Sequence record: PZ445448.1 | DNA from: a phage | Strand: one strand, 5' to 3' | Length of the DNA: 64,000 bases | Part shown: positions 15,123 to 63,318 of the stretch, in pieces | How the letters are laid out: the number at the start of each line of letters is the position of its first letter | Position numbering within the stretch: position 1 is the stretch's first letter | Notes under the pieces: generated by a model | Databases searched by the model: none | Told to the model about the DNA's origin: nothing | What the model saw: only the letters and a program-made list of their open reading frames with translations | Position numbers and translations under genes: made by a program

Positions 15123-15302
15123 ATGGCTATTATTGCAAAGACTGAGATCGTAGGCTTAGATTCTATTCTCCTCGCATATGAGGAAGCTATAGAAATGTAT
15201 GTGGTTTCCTATGGTGAGTATATCCGTGAATATAAATCTATTGATCTGGCTTTTGAATGTTATATCCGCCAGGTTAATAAAGCGTACGATGATTATCGTT
15301 AA
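15123..15302 (+). CDS. hypothetical small protein (59 aa)
   Basis: promoter, hairpin GGGGGCAACTAACCCC, AAGAGGATAAAAATC-ATG; below ORF-track size cutoff. Confidence 0.5.
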   Translation: MAIIAKTEIVGLDSILLAYEEAIEMYVVSYGEYIREYKSIDLAFECYIRQVNKAYDDYR

Positions 15303-15389
15303 AATAGTTTGACAACAGCCATCTTACAAAGCATAATACATAAGGCGGTGGAATGGTCCGCCACCTGGAACAAAGAAGAGGTAAACACC

Positions 15390-56792: not shown

Positions 56793-57143
56793 TCAGTAGA
56801 TGTTTTGTTTAATCTCTATTCCAAACTTCTTGAATGAGTCAGCAGCAAGCATAAATTTACGAGCTGCCGATGGATTAGAAGTATGCACGAAAATAATCAC
56901 GTTGTCAATAAGTGGTGGCTTTCCGAATACAAGTTTCTCCTCTAGCGCAGAGAAGCAGTCGTACCCTTCAAGCACTTCACCTAGATCATTGTCAAAATGC
57001 CACTCAGAAACGCGCCTGTAGAGCTTTCTATTATCGTTAATAAAATCCATGAACTCAGAAGAGTTCTTCAGCCAAAGAGCATCTTGGATTCCGTAATTTG
57101 ACGGATCTCTCAAGTCATCTAGCCACACAATCAACTTCTTCAT
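56793..57143 (-). CDS. hypothetical protein (start at MKKLIVW)
   Basis: ATGA overlap with RNA ligase stop; GAGGA SD. Confidence 0.4.
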   Translation of the reverse strand: MKKLIVWLDDLRDPSNYGIQDALWLKNSSEFMDFINDNRKLYRRVSEWHFDNDLGEVLEGYDCFSALEEKLVFGKPPLIDNVIIFVHTSNPSAARKFMLAADSFKKFGIEIKQNIY

Positions 57144-58075
57144 TGCATATAGTCCTCGTTGTGAAAATAGCAATCAAGTATCTCACGGCGTTCCTGCTCC
57201 AGGAGGCAGTTCCACACATCTTCTGTGTAATTGCTACGAATGAAGTTTACCATGCCATAAAACTCTTCGTCAATACGTTTAAAGATATCATCATCCCAAA
57301 TCTTCCAAGCTTTACCCCTCATTACGGCCTTCCGTGCCAAATAGTATGGAGACTTGATCTTCAGCTGCAGGTCATAAGGGTAGTAAGGCTTACGGATCAT
57401 ATACCCTTCGCCCCTTGTTTCTGCAGCTAATTCTTTTGCATAGCTGAACGGGATTTCACGCAAAGTGTGAGGACGTTTTGCACCAAGGTATTTGGCAATC
57501 CCATCTAAAGCTGCTTCTGGTAGCATTATTCCAGAATCATTATATCTGCAACCTATCAAATATGCGCCATGGTCTTCTTGAACAATATGCGGATCTGAAG
57601 GGTGACAAATTTCAAACATGAATGTCATGTTTTCATTGCCCATAACCTTCTTGATAAGATCTAAATTACCACATTGCTCTTGGATGGTTTCCTTTGCAAG
57701 GTTACAATATGGAGAATCAAGAGACCCGGTTGTTGAGAACAATAGGTCACCTTTATGAGATGATACCACACCAAGGAATCCGTTCTTTTTCTCTACCGCA
57801 GTCACAAGCTTATTGTCAGGCAGGTTGGTGGAGTTTTCTCCCAAGTTAAACACTTTTGTGAAGGGCCATGCCACAACATTTCCTTCATTACCTACAACAA
57901 TGCCTCGGCACTCCAGTAAACGAGGGGACAAATGCCATAAATTGTTGTAAAATACTTTTCTAGCATATTTATAGATCTTTAACCCGAGATCTGGGTAATA
58001 CCTACTGGTTACAAGACCTTTGTCAACTAGGTCGTCTGCATTAAAATACTTCATCATACGTTCCTCATTTGTCAT
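57140..58075 (-). CDS. RNA ligase 1-like (T4 RnlA family)
   Basis: LLECRGIVV, KVFNLGEN and VEKKNGFL align with T4 Rnl1 ALECRGIMF, KFFNLNEN and TKEDGSL. Confidence 0.6.
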   Translation of the reverse strand: MTNEERMMKYFNADDLVDKGLVTSRYYPDLGLKIYKYARKVFYNNLWHLSPRLLECRGIVVGNEGNVVAWPFTKVFNLGENSTNLPDNKLVTAVEKKNGFLGVVSSHKGDLLFSTTGSLDSPYCNLAKETIQEQCGNLDLIKKVMGNENMTFMFEICHPSDPHIVQEDHGAYLIGCRYNDSGIMLPEAALDGIAKYLGAKRPHTLREIPFSYAKELAAETRGEGYMIRKPYYPYDLQLKIKSPYYLARKAVMRGKAWKIWDDDIFKRIDEEFYGMVNFIRSNYTEDVWNCLLEQERREILDCYFHNEDYMQ

Positions 58076-58175
58076 TTTGTCAGTCTATCCTGCCACACAA
58101 ATAACCTAGTGTCAACACTTGAAATTAACAAAACAGTTAGATATACTATCGTTGAAATTAAAACGGAGGGTCACT

Positions 58176-58586
58176 ATGTCTAAAATGCTATATATCGTGC
58201 GTGGTCTACCAGGGTCTGGCAAATCAACACTGGCAAATGCGCTATCTTTAGAGGGTCTGTATCCACATTTTGAGAACGACATGTTCTGGTATGACGATGA
58301 CGGCAATTACAACTGGGATGCAAGTAAAGTAACACTCGCAGCGAAATGGTGCAAAGATAACGTAGAAGATATGATGCGTATGGGATACGACCGTATCGTG
58401 GTAAGTAATACGTTTACAAAAGAAAAACATGTGCAGGAATATGTTGACATGGCAATCAGTCATGGGTATAGTTATACCGTGATCGTGGTTGAAAACCTCC
58501 ACGGTAATAAAAGCATTCATGATGTTCCAGACAAGGTTGTGGATCGTATGGAACGCCAGCTTAAAAACTGCATTAAACTTAAATGA
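58176..58586 (+). CDS. P-loop kinase (polynucleotide kinase-like)
   Basis: Walker A GLPGSGKST; GGAGGG SD; divergent from RNA ligase gene. Confidence 0.55.
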   Translation: MSKMLYIVRGLPGSGKSTLANALSLEGLYPHFENDMFWYDDDGNYNWDASKVTLAAKWCKDNVEDMMRMGYDRIVVSNTFTKEKHVQEYVDMAISHGYSYTVIVVENLHGNKSIHDVPDKVVDRMERQLKNCIKLK

Positions 58587-58593
58587 GGAATGT

Positions 58594-59148
58594 ATGAAAT
58601 ACTTTGTAACAAGCGACACACACTTTCTCCACCAGCGGGTCATGGAGTTTGATTCATGTCAAAAACACAGATCTCAGTATGATCACAATCTTGACAGTAT
58701 GAATGCGGGAATCATCGCCGAATGGAACTCTGTTGTGTCACCTGCAGACACTGTGTTCCACTTGGGAGATATTGCGTGCACTAATGATAAGAATATCAAC
58801 AACTTACTTCCAGATATTCTAAATATGTTGAACGGACATATTATTCTTGTTCGTGGCAACCATGACACACGGACGACTGTCAGAATTATGAAAGAGTTCG
58901 GTCATGAGGTTGTAGATTATTACGAGCTTCGCCACAACAAGAATTTGATCTGTATGAGCCATTACCAGTTTGCAAAGTGGAACAGAAAGCCTCACGGATC
59001 AGTCCAACTGTTCGGTCATGCTCACGGAACCACACAGCAGTTGTTTGGCAGGCAGTTTGATGTCGGTTGGGATGTGTGGGGGAGACTCTTACCATTAGAA
59101 GAGGCATACCGTATTGCAATGAGTCTTGCTATTGACAGCTGGGAGTAA
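58594..59148 (+). CDS. metallophosphoesterase (calcineurin-like phosphatase)
   Basis: motifs TSDTHF, GDIA and RGNHD. Confidence 0.6.
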   Translation: MKYFVTSDTHFLHQRVMEFDSCQKHRSQYDHNLDSMNAGIIAEWNSVVSPADTVFHLGDIACTNDKNINNLLPDILNMLNGHIILVRGNHDTRTTVRIMKEFGHEVVDYYELRHNKNLICMSHYQFAKWNRKPHGSVQLFGHAHGTTQQLFGRQFDVGWDVWGRLLPLEEAYRIAMSLAIDSWE

Positions 59149-61329: not shown

Positions 61330-61620
61330 ATCCAATTTAAAGATGAATTTGATGGCTTTATCTCCGGATGCTTTGAAACAGGGTTCGGAGAAGACTGAGT
61401 TCCCCTTAGAGGGCTTGATAGTGCACCACACTTAAAATGGTAGGGGCAGCCAGCACATGACGATGTGACTCCAGCCAACCTGTAACAAGGTCGAGCCGAA
61501 GCGCGGGTAATAGGCCTCTGGTAACCCACTTGTTGGGTCTTGCTGGTCCAGGACGCTGGACAAGTCGCAGGGAACACCACCCTGCGGCGAACTTGACAAT
61601 CAGTATTTGCTATGATAAAA
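61330..61620. ncRNA. candidate structured RNA or leader (second GC-rich island)
   Basis: GC-rich with perfect hairpin CGCAGGG-AACACCAC-CCTGCG and others; no credible ORF. Confidence 0.2.
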
Positions 61621-61649
61621 TCCACCTATCACGTGATAATGGAGGAAAC

Positions 61650-61988
61650 ATGGCGGATACAACTAAAAAGCGTCGCCGTAGAGGCAGACCTCTGAAAGAG
61701 GAGTCCAACGCCATTCAGCTAGAGAAGAACATCCTTGATATGAAGGAATCTTTTATAGCGATGGTTCCAGAAGCTCACAAAGTTTTAAGAGAGCTGATGT
61801 TGGACCCGAAAACCAAACAAAATATTCGTCAAAGCATTGCAGAGTATGTTCTTGATAAGGCAGACCGAATGCAGGAAGAATATGATGAGATGTTTGGTGA
61901 AGAGGAAGAGGTGGTAGTAGAAGAGGCTGAAAAACCAGCACCTTTTATGCCATTCACCACAGAAATACAGCCTGTTGGCAATAGTTAA
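61650..61988 (+). CDS. hypothetical protein with AT-hook-like KKRRRRGRP motif and acidic C-terminus
   Basis: TGGAGGAAAC-ATG; TTGACA-N17-TAAAAT promoter upstream. Confidence 0.5.
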   Translation: MADTTKKRRRRGRPLKEESNAIQLEKNILDMKESFIAMVPEAHKVLRELMLDPKTKQNIRQSIAEYVLDKADRMQEEYDEMFGEEEEVVVEEAEKPAPFMPFTTEIQPVGNS

Positions 61989-61997
61989 AATATTTTC

Positions 61998-62026
61998 TTG
62001 ACAAACTTTGCTTAACAGTGTAATAT
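61998..62026 (+). promoter_or_regulatory. sigma70 promoter TTGACA-N17-TAATAT ahead of tRNA cluster
   Basis: consensus hexamers about 60 nt upstream of first tRNA. Confidence 0.5.
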
Positions 62027-62084: not shown

Positions 62085-62159
62085 GCCCTGTTAGCTTAGT
62101 GGATAAAGCAGCGGCCTTCTAAGCCGTTGACACTGGTTCGAGTCCAGTACGGGGTGCCA
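62085..62159 (+). tRNA. tRNA-Arg (anticodon TCT)
   Basis: cloverleaf folded by hand: acceptor GCCCTGT/ACGGGGT, anticodon loop CTTCTAA, T-loop TTCGAGT, encoded CCA. Confidence 0.75.
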
Positions 62160-62163
62160 AATT

Positions 62164-62250
62164 GGGGAGTTATCCCGTAGAGGTAGCGGTGTAGACTGTA
62201 AATCTATTGTCATTGCGACTCGGGTGGTTCGACTCCACCACTCCCCACCA
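62164..62250 (+). tRNA. tRNA-Tyr (anticodon GTA), long variable arm
   Basis: acceptor GGGGAGT/ACTCCCC, anticodon loop CTGTAAA, T-loop TTCGACT, CCA. Confidence 0.7.
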
Positions 62251-62364
62251 AATTTATATTTTTAGATGCATAAATAATACAGATAATGGCATTGATATTT
62301 ATCGTCGTTTATACTAGTCACTAACTGCTCGAAAATCAGTGTCATTATCAGTATAATTTATAAA

Positions 62365-62455
62365 GGAGGGTAGGGAGCAATGGTGCTCAAGCGGTCTTGA
62401 AAACCGTCCCGTTGAGGATGACTCGATGATGGTTCGATTCCATTACTCTCCGCCA
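62365..62455 (+). tRNA. tRNA-Ser (anticodon TGA), long variable arm
   Basis: acceptor GGAGGGT/ACTCTCC, anticodon loop CTTGAAA, T-loop TTCGATT, CCA. Confidence 0.65.
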
Positions 62456-62553
62456 CATTGTTGACCTTGTAATTAAGCGAAAGCCGGAAGCAGAACCGGA
62501 TTATCAAATGTTACAGTCGTCATCGCCGACTAGCAACATGGTCAACATACTGA

Positions 62554-62650
62554 GCTAGGTAAGCCCTTTGGCAAGGGCGAGGATTTTTAATCCTGAAAAT
62601 AGACGAGGTAGTCGTTGAATACATAGGTGGTTCGATTCCATCACCTAGCA
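62554..62650 (+). ncRNA. 97-nt tRNA-like element with irregular anticodon region
   Basis: perfect 7-bp acceptor GCTAGGT/ACCTAGC, D-arm, T-loop TTCGATT, but about 10-24 nt too long and no clean anticodon stem. Confidence 0.35.
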
Positions 62651-62657
62651 CCTTTTT

Positions 62658-62733
62658 GCTGATGTAGCACAATCGGTAGTGCAATTGATTTGTAATCAAT
62701 AGGTTGTAGGTTCAAGTCCTGCCATCAGCACCA
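62658..62733 (+). tRNA. tRNA-Thr (anticodon TGT)
   Basis: acceptor GCTGATG/CATCAGC, anticodon stem ATTGA/TCAAT loop TTTGTAA, CCA. Confidence 0.8.
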
Positions 62734-62734
62734 A

Positions 62735-62809
62735 GGCCCTGTAGCTGGAAGGTTCAAGCAAGCGACTCATAATCGCCAGACGGTGGTTCAATTCCACCCA
62801 GGGCCACCA
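62735..62809 (+). tRNA. tRNA-Met or Ile2 (anticodon CAT), elongator type
   Basis: acceptor GGCCCTG/CAGGGCC with G1-C72, anticodon loop CTCATAA, CCA. Confidence 0.7.
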
Positions 62810-62820
62810 AATAGTAAATA

Positions 62821-62897
62821 CTCCGCGTAGCTCAGCTTGGTAGAGCGCCTGATTTGGGATCAGGAGGTCGAGTGTTCGAATCACTCCGTGGAGACCA
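62821..62897 (+). tRNA. tRNA-Pro (anticodon TGG)
   Basis: D-arm GCTCAGCTTGGTAGAGC, anticodon stem CCTGA/TCAGG loop TTTGGGA, T-loop TTCGAAT, CCA. Confidence 0.8.
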
Positions 62898-62943: not shown

Positions 62944-63213
62944 ATGTATACACTTAAAATTGTAGAGCGTGTAAATCCAACTCATACCGTAGATTTTCGT
63001 GACGATTTCAATCCTCTGGCTGTAAATCTTCGAGAGTCATATCATGAACTCAGCTGCGATGCAGTGGTGGTCTTTTTTGAAGACAACTCTGAAGGGGCGG
63101 TAGCTTGTGTTGTTGATAGTGAGCAGAAGTTTTATATTTACAGAGATGTAGATGCATACTTGATGAATGAAAACGCAGTTACTGTTAGAATCATCCACCG
63201 AGTGCCTCGATAA
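62944..63213 (+). CDS. hypothetical protein
   Basis: AAAGGAACCTTTAAA-ATG. Confidence 0.45.
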   Translation: MYTLKIVERVNPTHTVDFRDDFNPLAVNLRESYHELSCDAVVVFFEDNSEGAVACVVDSEQKFYIYRDVDAYLMNENAVTVRIIHRVPR

Positions 63214-63266
63214 GTATTAGTCTCCTTTTAGTTAGTTTCGATCTATTTAGGTTACTCAATTTTAAC

Positions 63267-63300
63267 CCGCCCCGTTAGCTGTATAGCTGCGGGGTTTTTT
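63267..63300 (+). terminator. intrinsic terminator
   Basis: CCGCCCCG...CGGGG followed by TTTTTT. Confidence 0.6.
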
Positions 63301-63318
63301 CGTTTCTGGAGCCTTAAA

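What the first reader, a model, noticed from the sequence alone, without database searches (positions are those of the whole stretch)
62085..62897. Compact tRNA cluster (Arg-TCT, Tyr-GTA, Ser-TGA, Thr-TGT, Met-CAT, Pro-TGG) driven by one promoter
Six tRNAs with encoded CCA lie within about 800 bp behind a TTGACA-N17-TAATAT promoter, and tRNA-Thr and tRNA-Met are separated by a single nucleotide. The anticodons may compensate for codons rare in the host or replace tRNAs targeted by host nucleases, which ties in with the RNA-repair cassette.
Basis: seen in the sequence. Interest (0 to 1): 0.45.

Follow-up and report, generated by a model that had tools for sequence, protein, structure and literature searches.

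The report
Known rV5 phage tRNA operon
This is the tRNA gene cluster of an rV5-type E. coli phage, already published and annotated in 2013; the only fresh points are that its "Met" tRNA is really an isoleucine (AUA) tRNA and that the cluster hides a seventh, oddly built tRNA-shaped RNA, conserved across the phage subfamily, whose function is unknown.

Summary
Six tRNA genes with encoded CCA lie at exactly the stated coordinates behind a TTGACA-N17-TAATAT promoter, and Thr and the CAT tRNA are 1 nt apart. It is not new. The window is 99.6-99.8% identical to rV5-like Vequintavirus genomes. The rV5 record annotates the same promoter, "P(tRNA)", and the same six tRNAs, and the 2013 rV5 paper already made the codon-usage comparison.

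My own codon count supports compensation for only three tRNAs: Arg-UCU (AGA/AGG 5.5x host), the CAT tRNA (AUA 3.0x) and Thr-UGU (ACA 2.9x). It does not support it for Tyr, Ser or Pro (1.2-1.4x). Those three tRNAs are exactly the set kept in the reduced cluster of phage V18.

The CAT tRNA is an Ile2 type (62/76 identical to host tRNA-Ile(CAU), 51/77 to metT), not Met.

The nuclease-replacement idea is plausible, since an Rnl1 ligase, a kinase and a phosphoesterase lie about 3-5 kb upstream. It is untested, and the anticodon loops equal the host's except Thr C32U.

It is a covariation-supported tRNA-shaped RNA with a variable "anticodon" loop, present throughout Vequintavirinae and annotated inconsistently.

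The parts
61998..62026 (+). Sigma-70-type promoter TTGACA-N17-TAATAT, the 'P(tRNA)' of the rV5 record
   Evidence: 10/12 matches. Annotated in NC_011041. Conserved exactly in 12 Vequintavirus-type loci, including V18 and JES2013.
62085..62159 (+). tRNA-Arg(UCU), CCA encoded; reads AGA/AGG
   Evidence: ARAGORN. Rfam 67.8 bits. 74% identical to host argU with an identical anticodon loop. AGA is 5.5x and AGG 5.7x the host frequency.
62164..62250 (+). tRNA-Tyr(GUA), long variable arm, CCA encoded
   Evidence: ARAGORN. Rfam tRNA 29.9 bits, marginal. 68% identical to host tyrU; the anticodon loop and adjacent stem pairs are the same, but the variable loop differs (AUUGC against ACA).
62270..62361 (+). 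Long hairpin in the AT-rich Tyr-to-Ser spacer; its 3' arm overlaps a promoter-like TCGAAA-N17-TATAAT (62329-62357)
   Evidence: Fold of 62251-62364: -26.2 kcal/mol, z = -4.45, 0 of 200 shuffles as good. Promoter scan. Function not determined.
62365..62455 (+). tRNA-Ser(UGA), long variable arm, CCA encoded
   Evidence: ARAGORN. Below the Rfam tRNA threshold; best Rfam hit is tRNA-Sec at 41.5 bits against a 47-bit cutoff. 69% identical to host serT with an identical anticodon stem-loop.
62554..62652 (+). Seventh element ('X7'): 99-nt tRNA-shaped RNA with A8:U14, a 15-nt hairpin at the anticodon position (loop UUUUUAA or UUUUA), a ~30-nt extra arm flanked by invariant GAAAAUA and AAUACAU junctions, and a 3' end A-CC-U with no encoded CCA
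   Evidence: ARAGORN 'tRNA-???'. Rfam tRNA 35.5 bits. MFE cloverleaf plus extra arm, z = -3.66. Covariation: 99.2% of cells paired and 11/23 pairs changed on both sides, including G19:C56 to U19:A56. Own covariance model scores 85-120 bits for the family against 28 bits or less for real tRNAs.
62658..62733 (+). tRNA-Thr(UGU), CCA encoded; reads ACA
   Evidence: ARAGORN. Rfam 76.8 bits. 71% identical to host thrU, with loop change C32U. ACA is 2.9x the host frequency.
62735..62809 (+). tRNA with anticodon CAU, best read as tRNA-Ile2 (lysidine-dependent, reads AUA), CCA encoded; 1 nt after tRNA-Thr, as in T4's Thr-Ile pair
   Evidence: Rfam 60 bits. Best E. coli hit is tRNA-Ile at 81.6%. 62/76 identical to host tRNA-Ile(CAU), with identical acceptor stem and 18-nt anticodon stem-loop, against 51/77 to metT/metU. 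Records based on tRNAscan-SE call it Ile2-CAT. AUA is 3.0x and AUG 0.87x the host frequency.
62821..62897 (+). tRNA-Pro(UGG), CCA encoded
   Evidence: ARAGORN. Rfam 66.4 bits. 78% identical to host proM and 82% to T4 tRNA-Pro.
62944..63213 (+). 89-aa ORF of unknown function (rv5_gp069), probably co-transcribed with the tRNAs
   Evidence: ORF list. No Pfam hit. PHROG 8729, unknown function, 148.9 bits. No structure or terminator between tRNA-Pro and its start codon. Retained next to the reduced clusters of V18 and JES2013.
63269..63301 (+). Intrinsic terminator: interrupted GC-rich hairpin followed by UUUUUU; likely end of the transcription unit
   Evidence: Fold of 63255-63312: hairpin -16.9 kcal/mol, z = -2.46, followed by U6.
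57140..59148 (.). Context, the RNA-repair gene set: Rnl1-family RNA ligase (57140-58075, minus strand), P-loop polynucleotide kinase (58176-58586, plus) and calcineurin-type phosphoesterase (58594-59148, plus)
   Evidence: Pfam RNA_lig_T4_1 54.9 bits, AAA_33, Metallophos. PHROG 562 'RNA ligase and tail fiber attachment catalyst' 223 bits, PHROG 505 polynucleotide kinase, PHROG 547 phosphoesterase. Annotated the same way in CarlMeissner. The phosphoesterase and ligase, plus an ATPase annotated as similar to rv5_gp077, lie near the tRNA region in PVP-SE1.

Best explanation
This is the tRNA operon of an rV5-like (Vequintavirus) E. coli myovirus. A conserved sigma-70 promoter, probably helped by read-through from the upstream gene, drives a polycistronic transcript. 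It carries Arg(UCU), Tyr(GUA), Ser(UGA), a tRNA-shaped RNA (X7), Thr(UGU), Ile2(CAU) and Pro(UGG), then an 89-aa ORF and a terminator. Host RNase P and 3' trimming enzymes would cut out the tRNAs (inferred), and CCA is already encoded in the six genuine tRNAs. Arg(UCU), Thr(UGU) and the CAU tRNA form the core of the cluster. The CAU tRNA would be converted by host TilS to a lysidine tRNA that reads AUA (inferred). These three supply decoding capacity for AGA/AGG, ACA and AUA, codons the 43.6%-GC phage (PMC3606486) uses 3-5.5 times more often than E. coli. Tyr, Ser, Pro and X7 are accessory. They are not explained by codon bias and are lost in some relatives. They may buffer the phage against tRNA-targeting host defences. 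Shown here: gene identity, coordinates, promoter and terminator motifs, codon statistics, homology to host tRNAs, and cluster variability. Inferred: co-transcription, processing, lysidine modification and any anti-defence role.
For: All six tRNAs are predicted at the stated coordinates, and five pass Rfam's curated tRNA threshold. Identity to rV5-like genomes is 99.6-99.8%, and those genomes annotate the same genes and promoter. The 2013 rV5 paper reports the six tRAs... correction: six tRNAs, and higher phage use of AGA, ACA and CCA (PMC3606486). My count of 82 window ORFs against 39 K-12 ORFs gives phage/host ratios of AGG 5.7, AGA 5.5, AUA 3.0 and ACA 2.9, all within the six most enriched codons. 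UCA is 1.4, UAC 1.27, CCA 1.18 and AUG 0.87. The CAT tRNA shares its acceptor stem and 18-nt anticodon stem-loop with host tRNA-Ile(CAU). V18 keeps exactly Arg, Thr and CAT; JES2013 keeps those plus Pro. T4 carries the same five anticodons and the same Thr-1nt-Ile arrangement. The promoter is conserved in all relatives that contain the site, and a terminator appears only after the 89-aa ORF.
Against: There is no expression, processing or aminoacylation data. Codon usage was computed on mechanically chosen long ORFs and on a 50-kb host sample rather than curated gene sets or highly expressed genes. Promoter-like matches are not statistically enriched in the region. An upstream promoter (61593-61621, 11/12 matches) and an internal promoter-like site (62329-62357) mean the transcript structure is uncertain. 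The core/accessory split rests on two reduced relatives.
Confidence: 0.85

Rival explanations
1. The cluster, or at least Tyr, Ser, Pro and X7, exists mainly as a counter-defence. It would replace or out-titrate host tRNAs that defence nucleases cut during infection (PrrC, PARIS AriB, retron-Eco7/Septu PtuAB, colicin-type nucleases, Schlafens). It would work alongside the nearby Rnl1 ligase, kinase and phosphoesterase, which re-seal broken tRNAs.
For: The mechanism is demonstrated in other coliphages: T5 tRNA-Tyr against retron-Eco7 and tRNA-Lys against PrrC170 (PMC11555353), T5 tRNA-Lys against PARIS (PMC11464382), and T6 tRNA-Tyr dosage against Septu, which cuts the tRNA-Tyr variable arm (PMC13096335). 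Here Tyr, Ser and Pro are not explained by codon bias. The phage tRNA-Tyr has a different variable loop from host tyrU. An Rnl1-family ligase, a kinase and a phosphoesterase lie about 3-5 kb upstream. The ligase and phosphoesterase, with a nearby ATPase annotated as similar to rv5_gp077, remain near the tRNA region in PVP-SE1.
Against: Anticodon loops of Arg, Tyr, Ser, Ile2 and Pro are identical to the host's; only Thr has C32U. So these tRNAs lack the loop mutations proposed to confer nuclease resistance (PMC10264068). None of the papers read mentions rV5-like phages. Tyr, Ser and X7 have been deleted in V18 and JES2013, which were nevertheless isolated as viable phages. The link to the repair cassette rests only on proximity.
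Confidence: 0.3
2. The seventh element is a working tRNA-Lys(UUU), as tRNAscan-based annotations state, and supplies Lys decoding for the phage.
For: It scores 35.5 bits with Rfam's tRNA model, above the curated threshold. If the invariant flanking G.G is counted as pair 27:43, the arm has the canonical 17 nt, with loop UUUUUAA (U33, A37) differing from host tRNA-Lys CUUUUAA only at position 32. The discriminator is A73, which together with UUU is the LysRS identity set (general knowledge). The rV5 cluster has no other Lys tRNA. AAG is the third most enriched codon in the phage at 3.5x. The L-shape is intact.
Against: Orthologs keep the body but not the 'anticodon': UUU, UAU, UCC, GCC, UCA and others, in loops of 5-8 nt, often without U33. 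The pair that closes the loop covaries (C:G 10, U:A 4), leaving a 5-6 nt loop in most members. Where checked, the triplet duplicates a canonical tRNA in the same genome: PVP-SE1 has Gly-UCC, and TH18 has an Ile2(CAU) for AUA as well as a normal Lys-UUU. ARAGORN (PVP-SE1, TH18) and Rfam's tRNA model (six loci from Avuna-, Seuna-, Mydo- and Henunavirus) do not call the orthologs. Other oddities are A8:U14 instead of U8:A14, a ~30-nt extra arm on what would be a class I tRNA, and no encoded CCA. The discriminator varies (A, C or U) between the rV5 and Avunavirus-type copies.
Confidence: 0.3
3. The seventh element is a decaying tRNA pseudogene with no function, carried along in a recombination-prone tRNA cluster.
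For: It has been destroyed twice by Tyr/X7 recombination, in V18 and JES2013. It lacks CCA in the rV5 group, and its discriminator varies among the rV5 and Avunavirus-type copies.
Against: Its core is more conserved across genera than the neighbouring genuine tRNA-Thr (mean 83% against 73% pairwise identity). Of 23 scored pairs, 11 show compensatory changes, including a tertiary pair, and 99.2% of cells are paired. Long single-stranded junctions are invariant across five genera. There is one copy per phage genome in every full-length member examined.
Confidence: 0.07

Closest known systems
The tRNA cluster of Escherichia phage rV5 (NC_011041; Kropinski et al. 2013, PMC3606486)
   Same: Essentially the same locus: 99.6% identity over 1 kb, with the same six tRNAs, the same annotated P(tRNA) promoter and the same flanking genes. 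The paper already compares phage and host use of AGA, ACA, CCA, TAC and ATG.
   Different: The paper and record call the CAT tRNA 'Met' and find it 'seemingly unwarranted'; the evidence here points to Ile2 reading AUA. They also do not list the seventh element.
Phage T4 tRNA cluster (Gln, Leu, Gly, Pro, Ser, Thr, Ile, Arg, plus the stable RNAs rnaC and rnaD)
   Same: Five of the six anticodons are shared (Arg-UCU, Ser-UGA, Thr-UGU, Ile-CAU, Pro-UGG). Both have a Thr-1nt-Ile dimer arrangement and a small stable RNA of unknown function embedded among the tRNAs. An Rnl1-type ligase is encoded in both genomes.
   Different: Sequence identity is only 64-82% (Pro is highest). The gene order differs. 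rV5 has Tyr and lacks Gln, Leu and Gly. All rV5 tRNAs encode CCA, while several T4 tRNAs do not. X7 shows no specific similarity to rnaC or rnaD.
T5/T6-type anti-defence tRNAs (tRNA-Tyr against retron-Eco7 and Septu PtuAB; tRNA-Lys against PARIS and PrrC)
   Same: A phage-encoded tRNA-Tyr with a non-host variable loop and a Lys-like element, behind a consensus -35 promoter, in a genome that also encodes tRNA-repair enzymes.
   Different: No experimental link exists for rV5-like phages. The anticodon stem-loops are host-like, whereas T5 tRNA-Lys carries stem-loop mutations that protect it (PMC11464382).
For X7: non-canonical tRNA-like RNAs, namely allo-tRNAs (Mukai et al. 2017, PMC5389517), the Bacillus cereus 'tRNA-Other' pseudo-tRNA (PMC3399842), tRNA-Sec and the YrlA tRNA-like domain
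   Same: A tRNA L-shape with a long extra arm and unusual or unassignable anticodons. Standard predictors label it 'Other', '???' or 'suppressor'. There is precedent for such RNAs not serving translation.
   Different: X7 has 7/5 acceptor/T stems, not the 8/4 or 9/3 of allo-tRNAs or the 8/5 of tRNA-Sec. Its discriminator is A or U, not G73. The extra arm is set off by invariant 7-9 nt single-stranded linkers. It has swapped A8:U14. It is found only in phage-type sequences, with no hit in 185,579 bacterial and archaeal genomes using its 3' motif. Rfam's YrlA model does not match it.

Membership tests
Bacterial-type elongator tRNA genes (Rfam RF00005), the six tRNAs | Cloverleaf accepted by tRNA predictors | tested here: met
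   ARAGORN calls all six. Rfam tRNA meets its 29-bit cutoff for Thr, Arg, Pro, CAT and Tyr (76.8 to 29.9 bits). Ser falls below the cutoff but is 69% identical to host serT.
Bacterial-type elongator tRNA genes (Rfam RF00005), the six tRNAs | Seven-nucleotide anticodon loop with U33 and a purine at 37, matching a host isoacceptor | tested here: met
   Alignments to K-12 argU, tyrU, serT, thrU, proM and to a host tRNA-Ile(CAU) show identical loops, except C32U in Thr.
Bacterial-type elongator tRNA genes (Rfam RF00005), the six tRNAs | Expressed, processed and aminoacylated | not testable with these tools
   Needs tRNA-seq, Northern blots or charging assays.
tRNA-Ile2 (CAU anticodon, lysidine-modified, reads AUA), the CAT tRNA | Closer to host tRNA-Ile(CAU) than to elongator or initiator tRNA-Met | tested here: met
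   Best E. coli hit is annotated tRNA-Ile at 81.6%. 62/76 identical to host Ile(CAU) against 51/77 to metT/metU.
tRNA-Ile2 (CAU anticodon, lysidine-modified, reads AUA), the CAT tRNA | TilS/IleRS determinants: C4:G69 and C5:G68 in the acceptor stem and an Ile2-type anticodon stem-loop (determinants taken from general knowledge of E. coli TilS) | tested here: met
   The acceptor is GGCCCUG.../...CAGGGCC-A-CCA, and the 18-nt stretch AGCGACUCAUAAUCGCCA is identical to the host tRNA-Ile(CAU).
tRNA-Ile2 (CAU anticodon, lysidine-modified, reads AUA), the CAT tRNA | C34 actually converted to lysidine and the tRNA charged with Ile | not testable with these tools
   Requires mass spectrometry or a TilS-dependence experiment.
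Initiator tRNA-fMet, the CAT tRNA | A 1:72 mismatch and three consecutive G:C pairs at the bottom of the anticodon stem (general knowledge) | tested here: not met
   G1:C72 is paired, and the anticodon stem is AGCGA/UCGCC (sequence).
tRNA-Lys(UUU), X7 | Anticodon conserved among orthologs | tested here: not met
   The triplet at the equivalent columns is UUU, UAU, UCC, GCC, UCA or other, and loop length varies from 5 to 8 nt.
tRNA-Lys(UUU), X7 | Canonical core: U8:A14, short class I variable loop, 17-nt anticodon arm preceded by nucleotide 26 | tested here: not met
   A8:U14 is invariant. There is a ~30-nt extra region. Only 16-17 nt lie between the D stem and the GAAAA junction, so one nucleotide is missing relative to a canonical tRNA.
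tRNA-Lys(UUU), X7 | UUU anticodon in a 7-nt loop plus A73 (the LysRS identity set, general knowledge) | tested here: inconclusive
   This reading is possible in the rV5 version only (loop UUUUUAA, A73). Alternatively U32:A38 pairs and leaves a 5-nt loop, and that pair covaries in the family.
tRNA L-shaped fold, X7 | Acceptor, D, anticodon-position and T helices plus the D-loop/T-loop elbow pair G19:C56 | tested here: met
   99.2% of 391 cells are paired. 11 of 23 pairs change on both sides. G19:C56 occurs in 10 sequences and U19:A56 in 7. Slid controls give 33-47% paired.
allo-tRNA / tRNA-Sec, X7 | Acceptor/T stems of 8/4 or 9/3 (allo-tRNA) or 8/5 with G73 and a UCA anticodon (tRNA-Sec) | tested here: not met
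   X7 has 7/5 stems and an A or U discriminator, and only a minority of copies have UCA. In Rfam the plain tRNA model beat tRNA-Sec.
T4 species 1 / species 2 RNAs (rnaC, rnaD), X7 | Sequence similarity | tested here: not met
   Neither rnaC nor rnaD is among X7's four best global-alignment matches to T4 RNAs; the best four are ordinary tRNAs at 55-60% identity.

The most novel reading that the evidence does not exclude
The seventh element (62554-62652) belongs to a previously undescribed family of tRNA-shaped RNAs found across the Vequintavirinae subfamily. It keeps a full tRNA L-shape, including the covarying G19:C56 elbow pair, a swapped A8:U14, and an extra arm held between two invariant single-stranded junctions. 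Its 'anticodon' hairpin is free to change in sequence and length. On this reading it does not decode. It would act through its shape, for example as a decoy or sponge for tRNA-targeting defence nucleases, or as a partner of a phage or host tRNA-binding enzyme. The fast-evolving loop would then track the target in each host genus (Lys-like in E. coli phages, Gly-like or UCA elsewhere).
Probability: 0.4. Interest if true: 0.6.

Novelty: already known. Interest (0 to 1): 0.22.

Why it matters
As written, the finding adds nothing beyond the 2013 rV5 paper and GenBank annotation, so it should be ranked low. Three by-products have modest practical value.

1. The CAT tRNA is mislabelled 'Met' in many rV5-like records. 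Reading it as Ile2 removes the published puzzle of an 'unwarranted' Met tRNA. It also completes a clean picture: Arg, Ile2 and Thr cover the rare host codons AGA/AGG, AUA and ACA.

2. The cluster splits into a codon-compensating core and a dispensable accessory block that has been lost twice by Tyr/X7 recombination. That gives concrete deletion targets for testing the tRNA counter-defence hypothesis in the BASEL Vequintavirus phages.

3. The seventh element carries five incompatible labels in public records, or is left unannotated and sometimes overlaid with hypothetical ORFs. It deserves its own RNA family model and an experiment.

Tried and rejected
- **T4 rnaC/rnaD:** compared X7 with these RNAs and found no specific similarity.
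- **Rfam beyond tRNA:** only chance-level hits, namely YrlA at 25 bits against a 69-bit cutoff at other coordinates, a Plastid-ycf2 hit that is the reverse strand of a tRNA, and mascRNA.
- **X7 outside phages:** 0 hits in 185,579 bacterial and archaeal genomes. The 21 metagenome hits include several phage-sized contigs of 137-152 kb along with shorter fragments.
- **Prior description of X7:** none found in two full-text searches. The library lacks most subscription journals, so this is not proof of absence.
- **Gap-filling test:** asked whether X7's triplet fills a gap in each phage's tRNA set. It fails in PVP-SE1 (canonical Gly-UCC present) and TH18 (Ile2-CAU present) and holds only in the rV5 group.
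- **Nuclease-resistance signature:** looked for anticodon-loop mutations in the six tRNAs and found only Thr C32U.
- **Flanking ORFs:** Pfam and PHROGs gave no function for 61650-61988 or 62944-63213.
- **Spacers and leader:** the Ser-to-X7 spacer (62456-62553) is only weakly structured (z = -2.57, 5 of 200 shuffles) and the leader is not structured (z = +0.67), so neither was pursued.
- **Second X7-like copy:** a weak model hit at window 15268-15373 (19.3 bits, E = 0.024) was treated as noise.
Full report

Yes. ARAGORN finds tRNA-Arg(tct) at 62085-62159, Tyr(gta) at 62164-62250, Ser(tga) at 62365-62455, Thr(tgt) at 62658-62733, a cat-anticodon tRNA at 62735-62809 and Pro(tgg) at 62821-62897.

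The sequence shows an encoded CCA at the end of each, and a single base (62734) between Thr and the cat tRNA.

Rfam's tRNA covariance model gives 76.8 (Thr), 67.8 (Arg), 66.4 (Pro), 60.0 (cat) and a marginal 29.9 bits (Tyr) against a curated threshold of 29. Ser does not reach it. Its best Rfam hit is the long-arm tRNA-Sec model at 41.5 bits, below that model's 47-bit threshold. Ser is nevertheless 69% identical to E. coli serT, with an identical anticodon stem-loop.

The promoter TTGACA-N17-TAATAT is at 61998-62026 with 10 of 12 consensus matches. Promoter-like matches as a class are not enriched in this region (10 found, 5.6 +/- 3.0 expected). This particular site, however, is conserved base-for-base in all 12 Vequintavirus-type loci fetched that contain it.

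**2. What is it?**

The 1-kb region is 99.6-99.8% identical to more than fifty rV5-like coliphages of genus Vequintavirus, including isim, CarlMeissner/Bas48 and rV5 itself.

The rV5 reference record annotates the same six tRNAs and a 'Sigma70-type promoter; P(tRNA)' at the same place.

The rV5 genome paper reports 'six tRNAs'. It also compares codon use between phage and host: AGA 5.1% against 26%, ACA 14.6% against 35%, CCA 19.1% against 29%, TAC 42.7% against 46% (PMC3606486).

**3. Transcription unit**

No terminator or stable structure lies between the upstream ORF (stop at 61988) and the promoter, or between tRNA-Pro and the ATG of an 89-aa ORF at 62944-63213.

The first convincing intrinsic terminator is at 63269-63301: a hairpin of -16.9 kcal/mol followed by U6.

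A stronger promoter-like site (61593-61621, 11/12 matches) precedes the upstream ORF. A weaker one (62329-62357) sits just before tRNA-Ser, inside a long spacer hairpin at 62270-62361 (z = -4.45).

'One promoter' is therefore a reasonable but unproven simplification. The unit probably also includes the 89-aa ORF, whose function is unknown (PHROG 8729).

**4. Met or Ile?**

The rV5 paper found a Met tRNA 'seemingly unwarranted'. The evidence favours Ile2:

- The best E. coli match to the cat tRNA is a gene annotated tRNA-Ile, at 81.6% over its full length.
- It shares 62 of 76 positions with that host tRNA-Ile(CAU), including the whole acceptor stem (GGCCC.../...GGGCC, hence C4:G69 and C5:G68) and an 18-nt anticodon stem-loop. 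It shares 51 of 77 positions with metT/metU.
- It lacks initiator features: 1:72 is paired and there is no GGG/CCC in the anticodon stem.
- Newer records based on tRNAscan-SE call it Ile2-CAT.
- T4 has the same Thr-1nt-Ile arrangement.

I conclude it is an Ile2-type tRNA that would read AUA after lysidine modification by host TilS. The modification itself is inferred.

**5. Codon compensation**

I compared 82 long ORFs in the window (13,500 codons) with 39 long ORFs in a 50-kb K-12 segment (14,028 codons). Per-thousand frequency ratios, phage over host:

| Codon | Ratio | Serving tRNA |
|---|---|---|
| AGG | 5.7 | Arg-UCU |
| AGA | 5.5 | Arg-UCU |
| AUA | 3.0 | CAU tRNA (Ile2) |
| ACA | 2.9 | Thr-UGU |
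| UCA | 1.4 | Ser-UGA |
| UAC / UAU | 1.27 / 1.26 | Tyr-GUA |
| CCA | 1.18 | Pro-UGG |
| AUG | 0.87 | none, if the CAU tRNA is Ile2 |

The first four are all among the six most enriched codons. Compensation therefore explains Arg, Ile2 and Thr, but not Tyr, Ser or Pro.

Cluster content varies in the same pattern. Phage V18 keeps only Arg, Thr and the cat tRNA. JES2013 keeps those plus Pro.

The deletions arose by recombination between tRNA-like genes. V18 carries a chimera of the 5' half of tRNA-Tyr joined to the 3' half of the seventh element, with the junction in the variable arms. JES2013 carries an independent Tyr/X7 chimera joined in the T arm.

**6. Counter-defence and the repair cassette**

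The window encodes an Rnl1-family RNA ligase (57140-58075, minus strand; Pfam RNA_lig_T4_1 at 54.9 bits; PHROG 562, the T4 gp63 family). It also encodes a P-loop polynucleotide kinase (58176-58586) and a calcineurin-type phosphoesterase (58594-59148). These lie about 3-5 kb upstream of the tRNAs. In PVP-SE1 the phosphoesterase and ligase, with a nearby ATPase annotated as similar to rv5_gp077, also lie near the tRNA region.

Phage tRNAs that neutralise tRNA-cutting defences are documented in other coliphages:

- T5 tRNA-Tyr against retron-Eco7 PtuAB, and tRNA-Lys against PrrC170 (PMC11555353).
- T5 tRNA-Lys against PARIS (PMC11464382).
- T6 tRNA-Tyr dosage against Septu, which cuts the variable arm of tRNA-Tyr (PMC13096335).

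A general hypothesis of this kind is set out in PMC10264068.

None of these papers mentions rV5-like phages. In this cluster the anticodon loops equal the host's, except C32U in Thr. The Tyr variable loop does differ from tyrU. The idea is plausible for the accessory genes but is not tested by anything here.

**7. The seventh element (X7, 62554-62652)**

ARAGORN calls it 'tRNA-???' with a four-base anticodon. Rfam's tRNA model gives 35.5 bits with a 26-nt insertion.

Public records label it tRNA-Lys(TTT), tRNA-Stop(tta), tRNA-OTHER, '???(atcc)' or 'suppressor'. Others omit it or overlay it with hypothetical ORFs.

*Distribution.* Homologs occur in Vequinta-, Avuna-, Seuna-, Mydo- and Henunavirus and in phage-sized metagenome contigs. 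They do not occur in 185,579 bacterial and archaeal genomes when searched with the element's 3' motif.

*Structure.* On 17 distinct sequences a cloverleaf is 99.2% paired, against 33-47% when partners are slid. Eleven of 23 pairs change on both sides. This includes the tertiary elbow pair, which is G19:C56 in 10 sequences and U19:A56 in 7. The RNA therefore adopts a true tRNA L-shape.

*Departures from a canonical tRNA:*
- Invariant A8:U14.
- One nucleotide too few between the D stem and the extra region.
- An extra-arm hairpin of variable sequence held between the invariant junctions GAAAA(U)A and AAUACAU.
- A hairpin at the anticodon position whose loop varies in length (5-8 nt) and sequence: UUUUA, UUAUA, CAUCCA, CAGCCA, CCUCAA, YAUCAAA, GUGAUA. 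It often lacks U33.

*Conservation.* Its core is more conserved across genera than the adjacent tRNA-Thr (83% against 73% mean identity), and the pattern is inverted: the loop varies while the rest is frozen.

*Distinctness.* A covariance model built from the family scores members at 85-120 bits and every ordinary tRNA at 28 bits or less, with one copy per phage. Rfam's tRNA model does not call the orthologs in six loci from four other genera, and ARAGORN does not call them in PVP-SE1 or TH18.

*Redundancy.* In PVP-SE1 (UCC-type) and TH18 (UAU-type), a canonical tRNA with the same decoding capacity is already present.

*The rV5 version.* It is the most tRNA-like member. It has a possible 7-nt UUUUUAA loop and A73, there is no other Lys tRNA in the cluster, and AAG is 3.5x enriched in the phage. 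A Lys-decoding role in this genus therefore cannot be excluded.

My estimates are about 0.4 for a non-decoding tRNA mimic, 0.3 for a working Lys tRNA in rV5-like phages, and under 0.1 for a dead pseudogene.

**8. Verdict**

The finding is correct but already known.

The by-products worth keeping are the Ile2 reassignment, the core/accessory structure of the cluster, and the unclassified tRNA-shaped RNA.

Noticed in passing
It is conserved across Vequintavirinae with strong covariation but has a variable 'anticodon' hairpin. Public records label it inconsistently (Lys, Stop, OTHER, ???, suppressor, or nothing).
   Followed up: yes
L006 1440-1560 (phage V18); L007 1300-1540 (phage JES2013): Two independent chimeric genes fuse the 5' part of tRNA-Tyr to the 3' part of the seventh element, with junctions in the variable arm and in the T arm respectively. 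Each fusion deletes tRNA-Ser and the spacers. So the tRNA cluster is a recombination hotspot.
   Followed up: partly
window 62270-62361: A long, AT-rich, near-perfect hairpin fills the Tyr-to-Ser spacer (z = -4.45). Its 3' arm contains a promoter-like TCGAAA-N17-TATAAT ending 7 nt before tRNA-Ser. It could be an RNase III-type processing site, an internal promoter, or a relic of an insertion.
   Followed up: partly
window 62944-63213 and 63269-63301: An 89-aa ORF of unknown function (PHROG 8729) follows tRNA-Pro with no intervening terminator, and is itself followed by a good intrinsic terminator. It is retained next to the reduced clusters of V18 and JES2013, so it is probably part of the tRNA transcription unit.
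   Followed up: partly
(records MG0656xx): Eighteen GenBank records named 'Campylobacter phage', with host listed as C. jejuni, are 99-100% identical to this E. coli rV5-like locus. They look like mislabelled or contaminating coliphage genomes.
   Followed up: no
L063 14079-14164 (PVP-SE1): The gene annotated tRNA-Lys (gt009) in PVP-SE1 is called 'tRNA-??? (ggca)' by ARAGORN. This is a second oddly built tRNA-like gene in the subfamily's large tRNA region.
   Followed up: no
L020 208-600 (Raoultella phage Ro1); L001 5052-7001 (rV5): An HNH endonuclease gene is inserted between tRNA-Thr and the seventh element in Ro1. In rV5 the nearby terminase large-subunit gene is annotated as joined from three pieces with an HNH endonuclease inside. 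Homing endonucleases are therefore active around this locus, as SegB is in T4 and T6.
   Followed up: no
L013-L021, about 190-290 nt downstream of the seventh element: In Seuna-, Mydo- and Henunavirus a non-coding stretch of about 190-290 nt lies between the seventh element and tRNA-Leu(UAA). Some records overlay it with tiny hypothetical ORFs. It was not examined for further structured RNAs.
   Followed up: no
L033 11780-12097 (CarlMeissner bas48_0154; matching part of the window not mapped): The matching phage genome annotates a ribosome hibernation factor gene in the region corresponding to the window. This is another translation-related function besides the tRNAs and the RNA-repair genes.
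   Followed up: no
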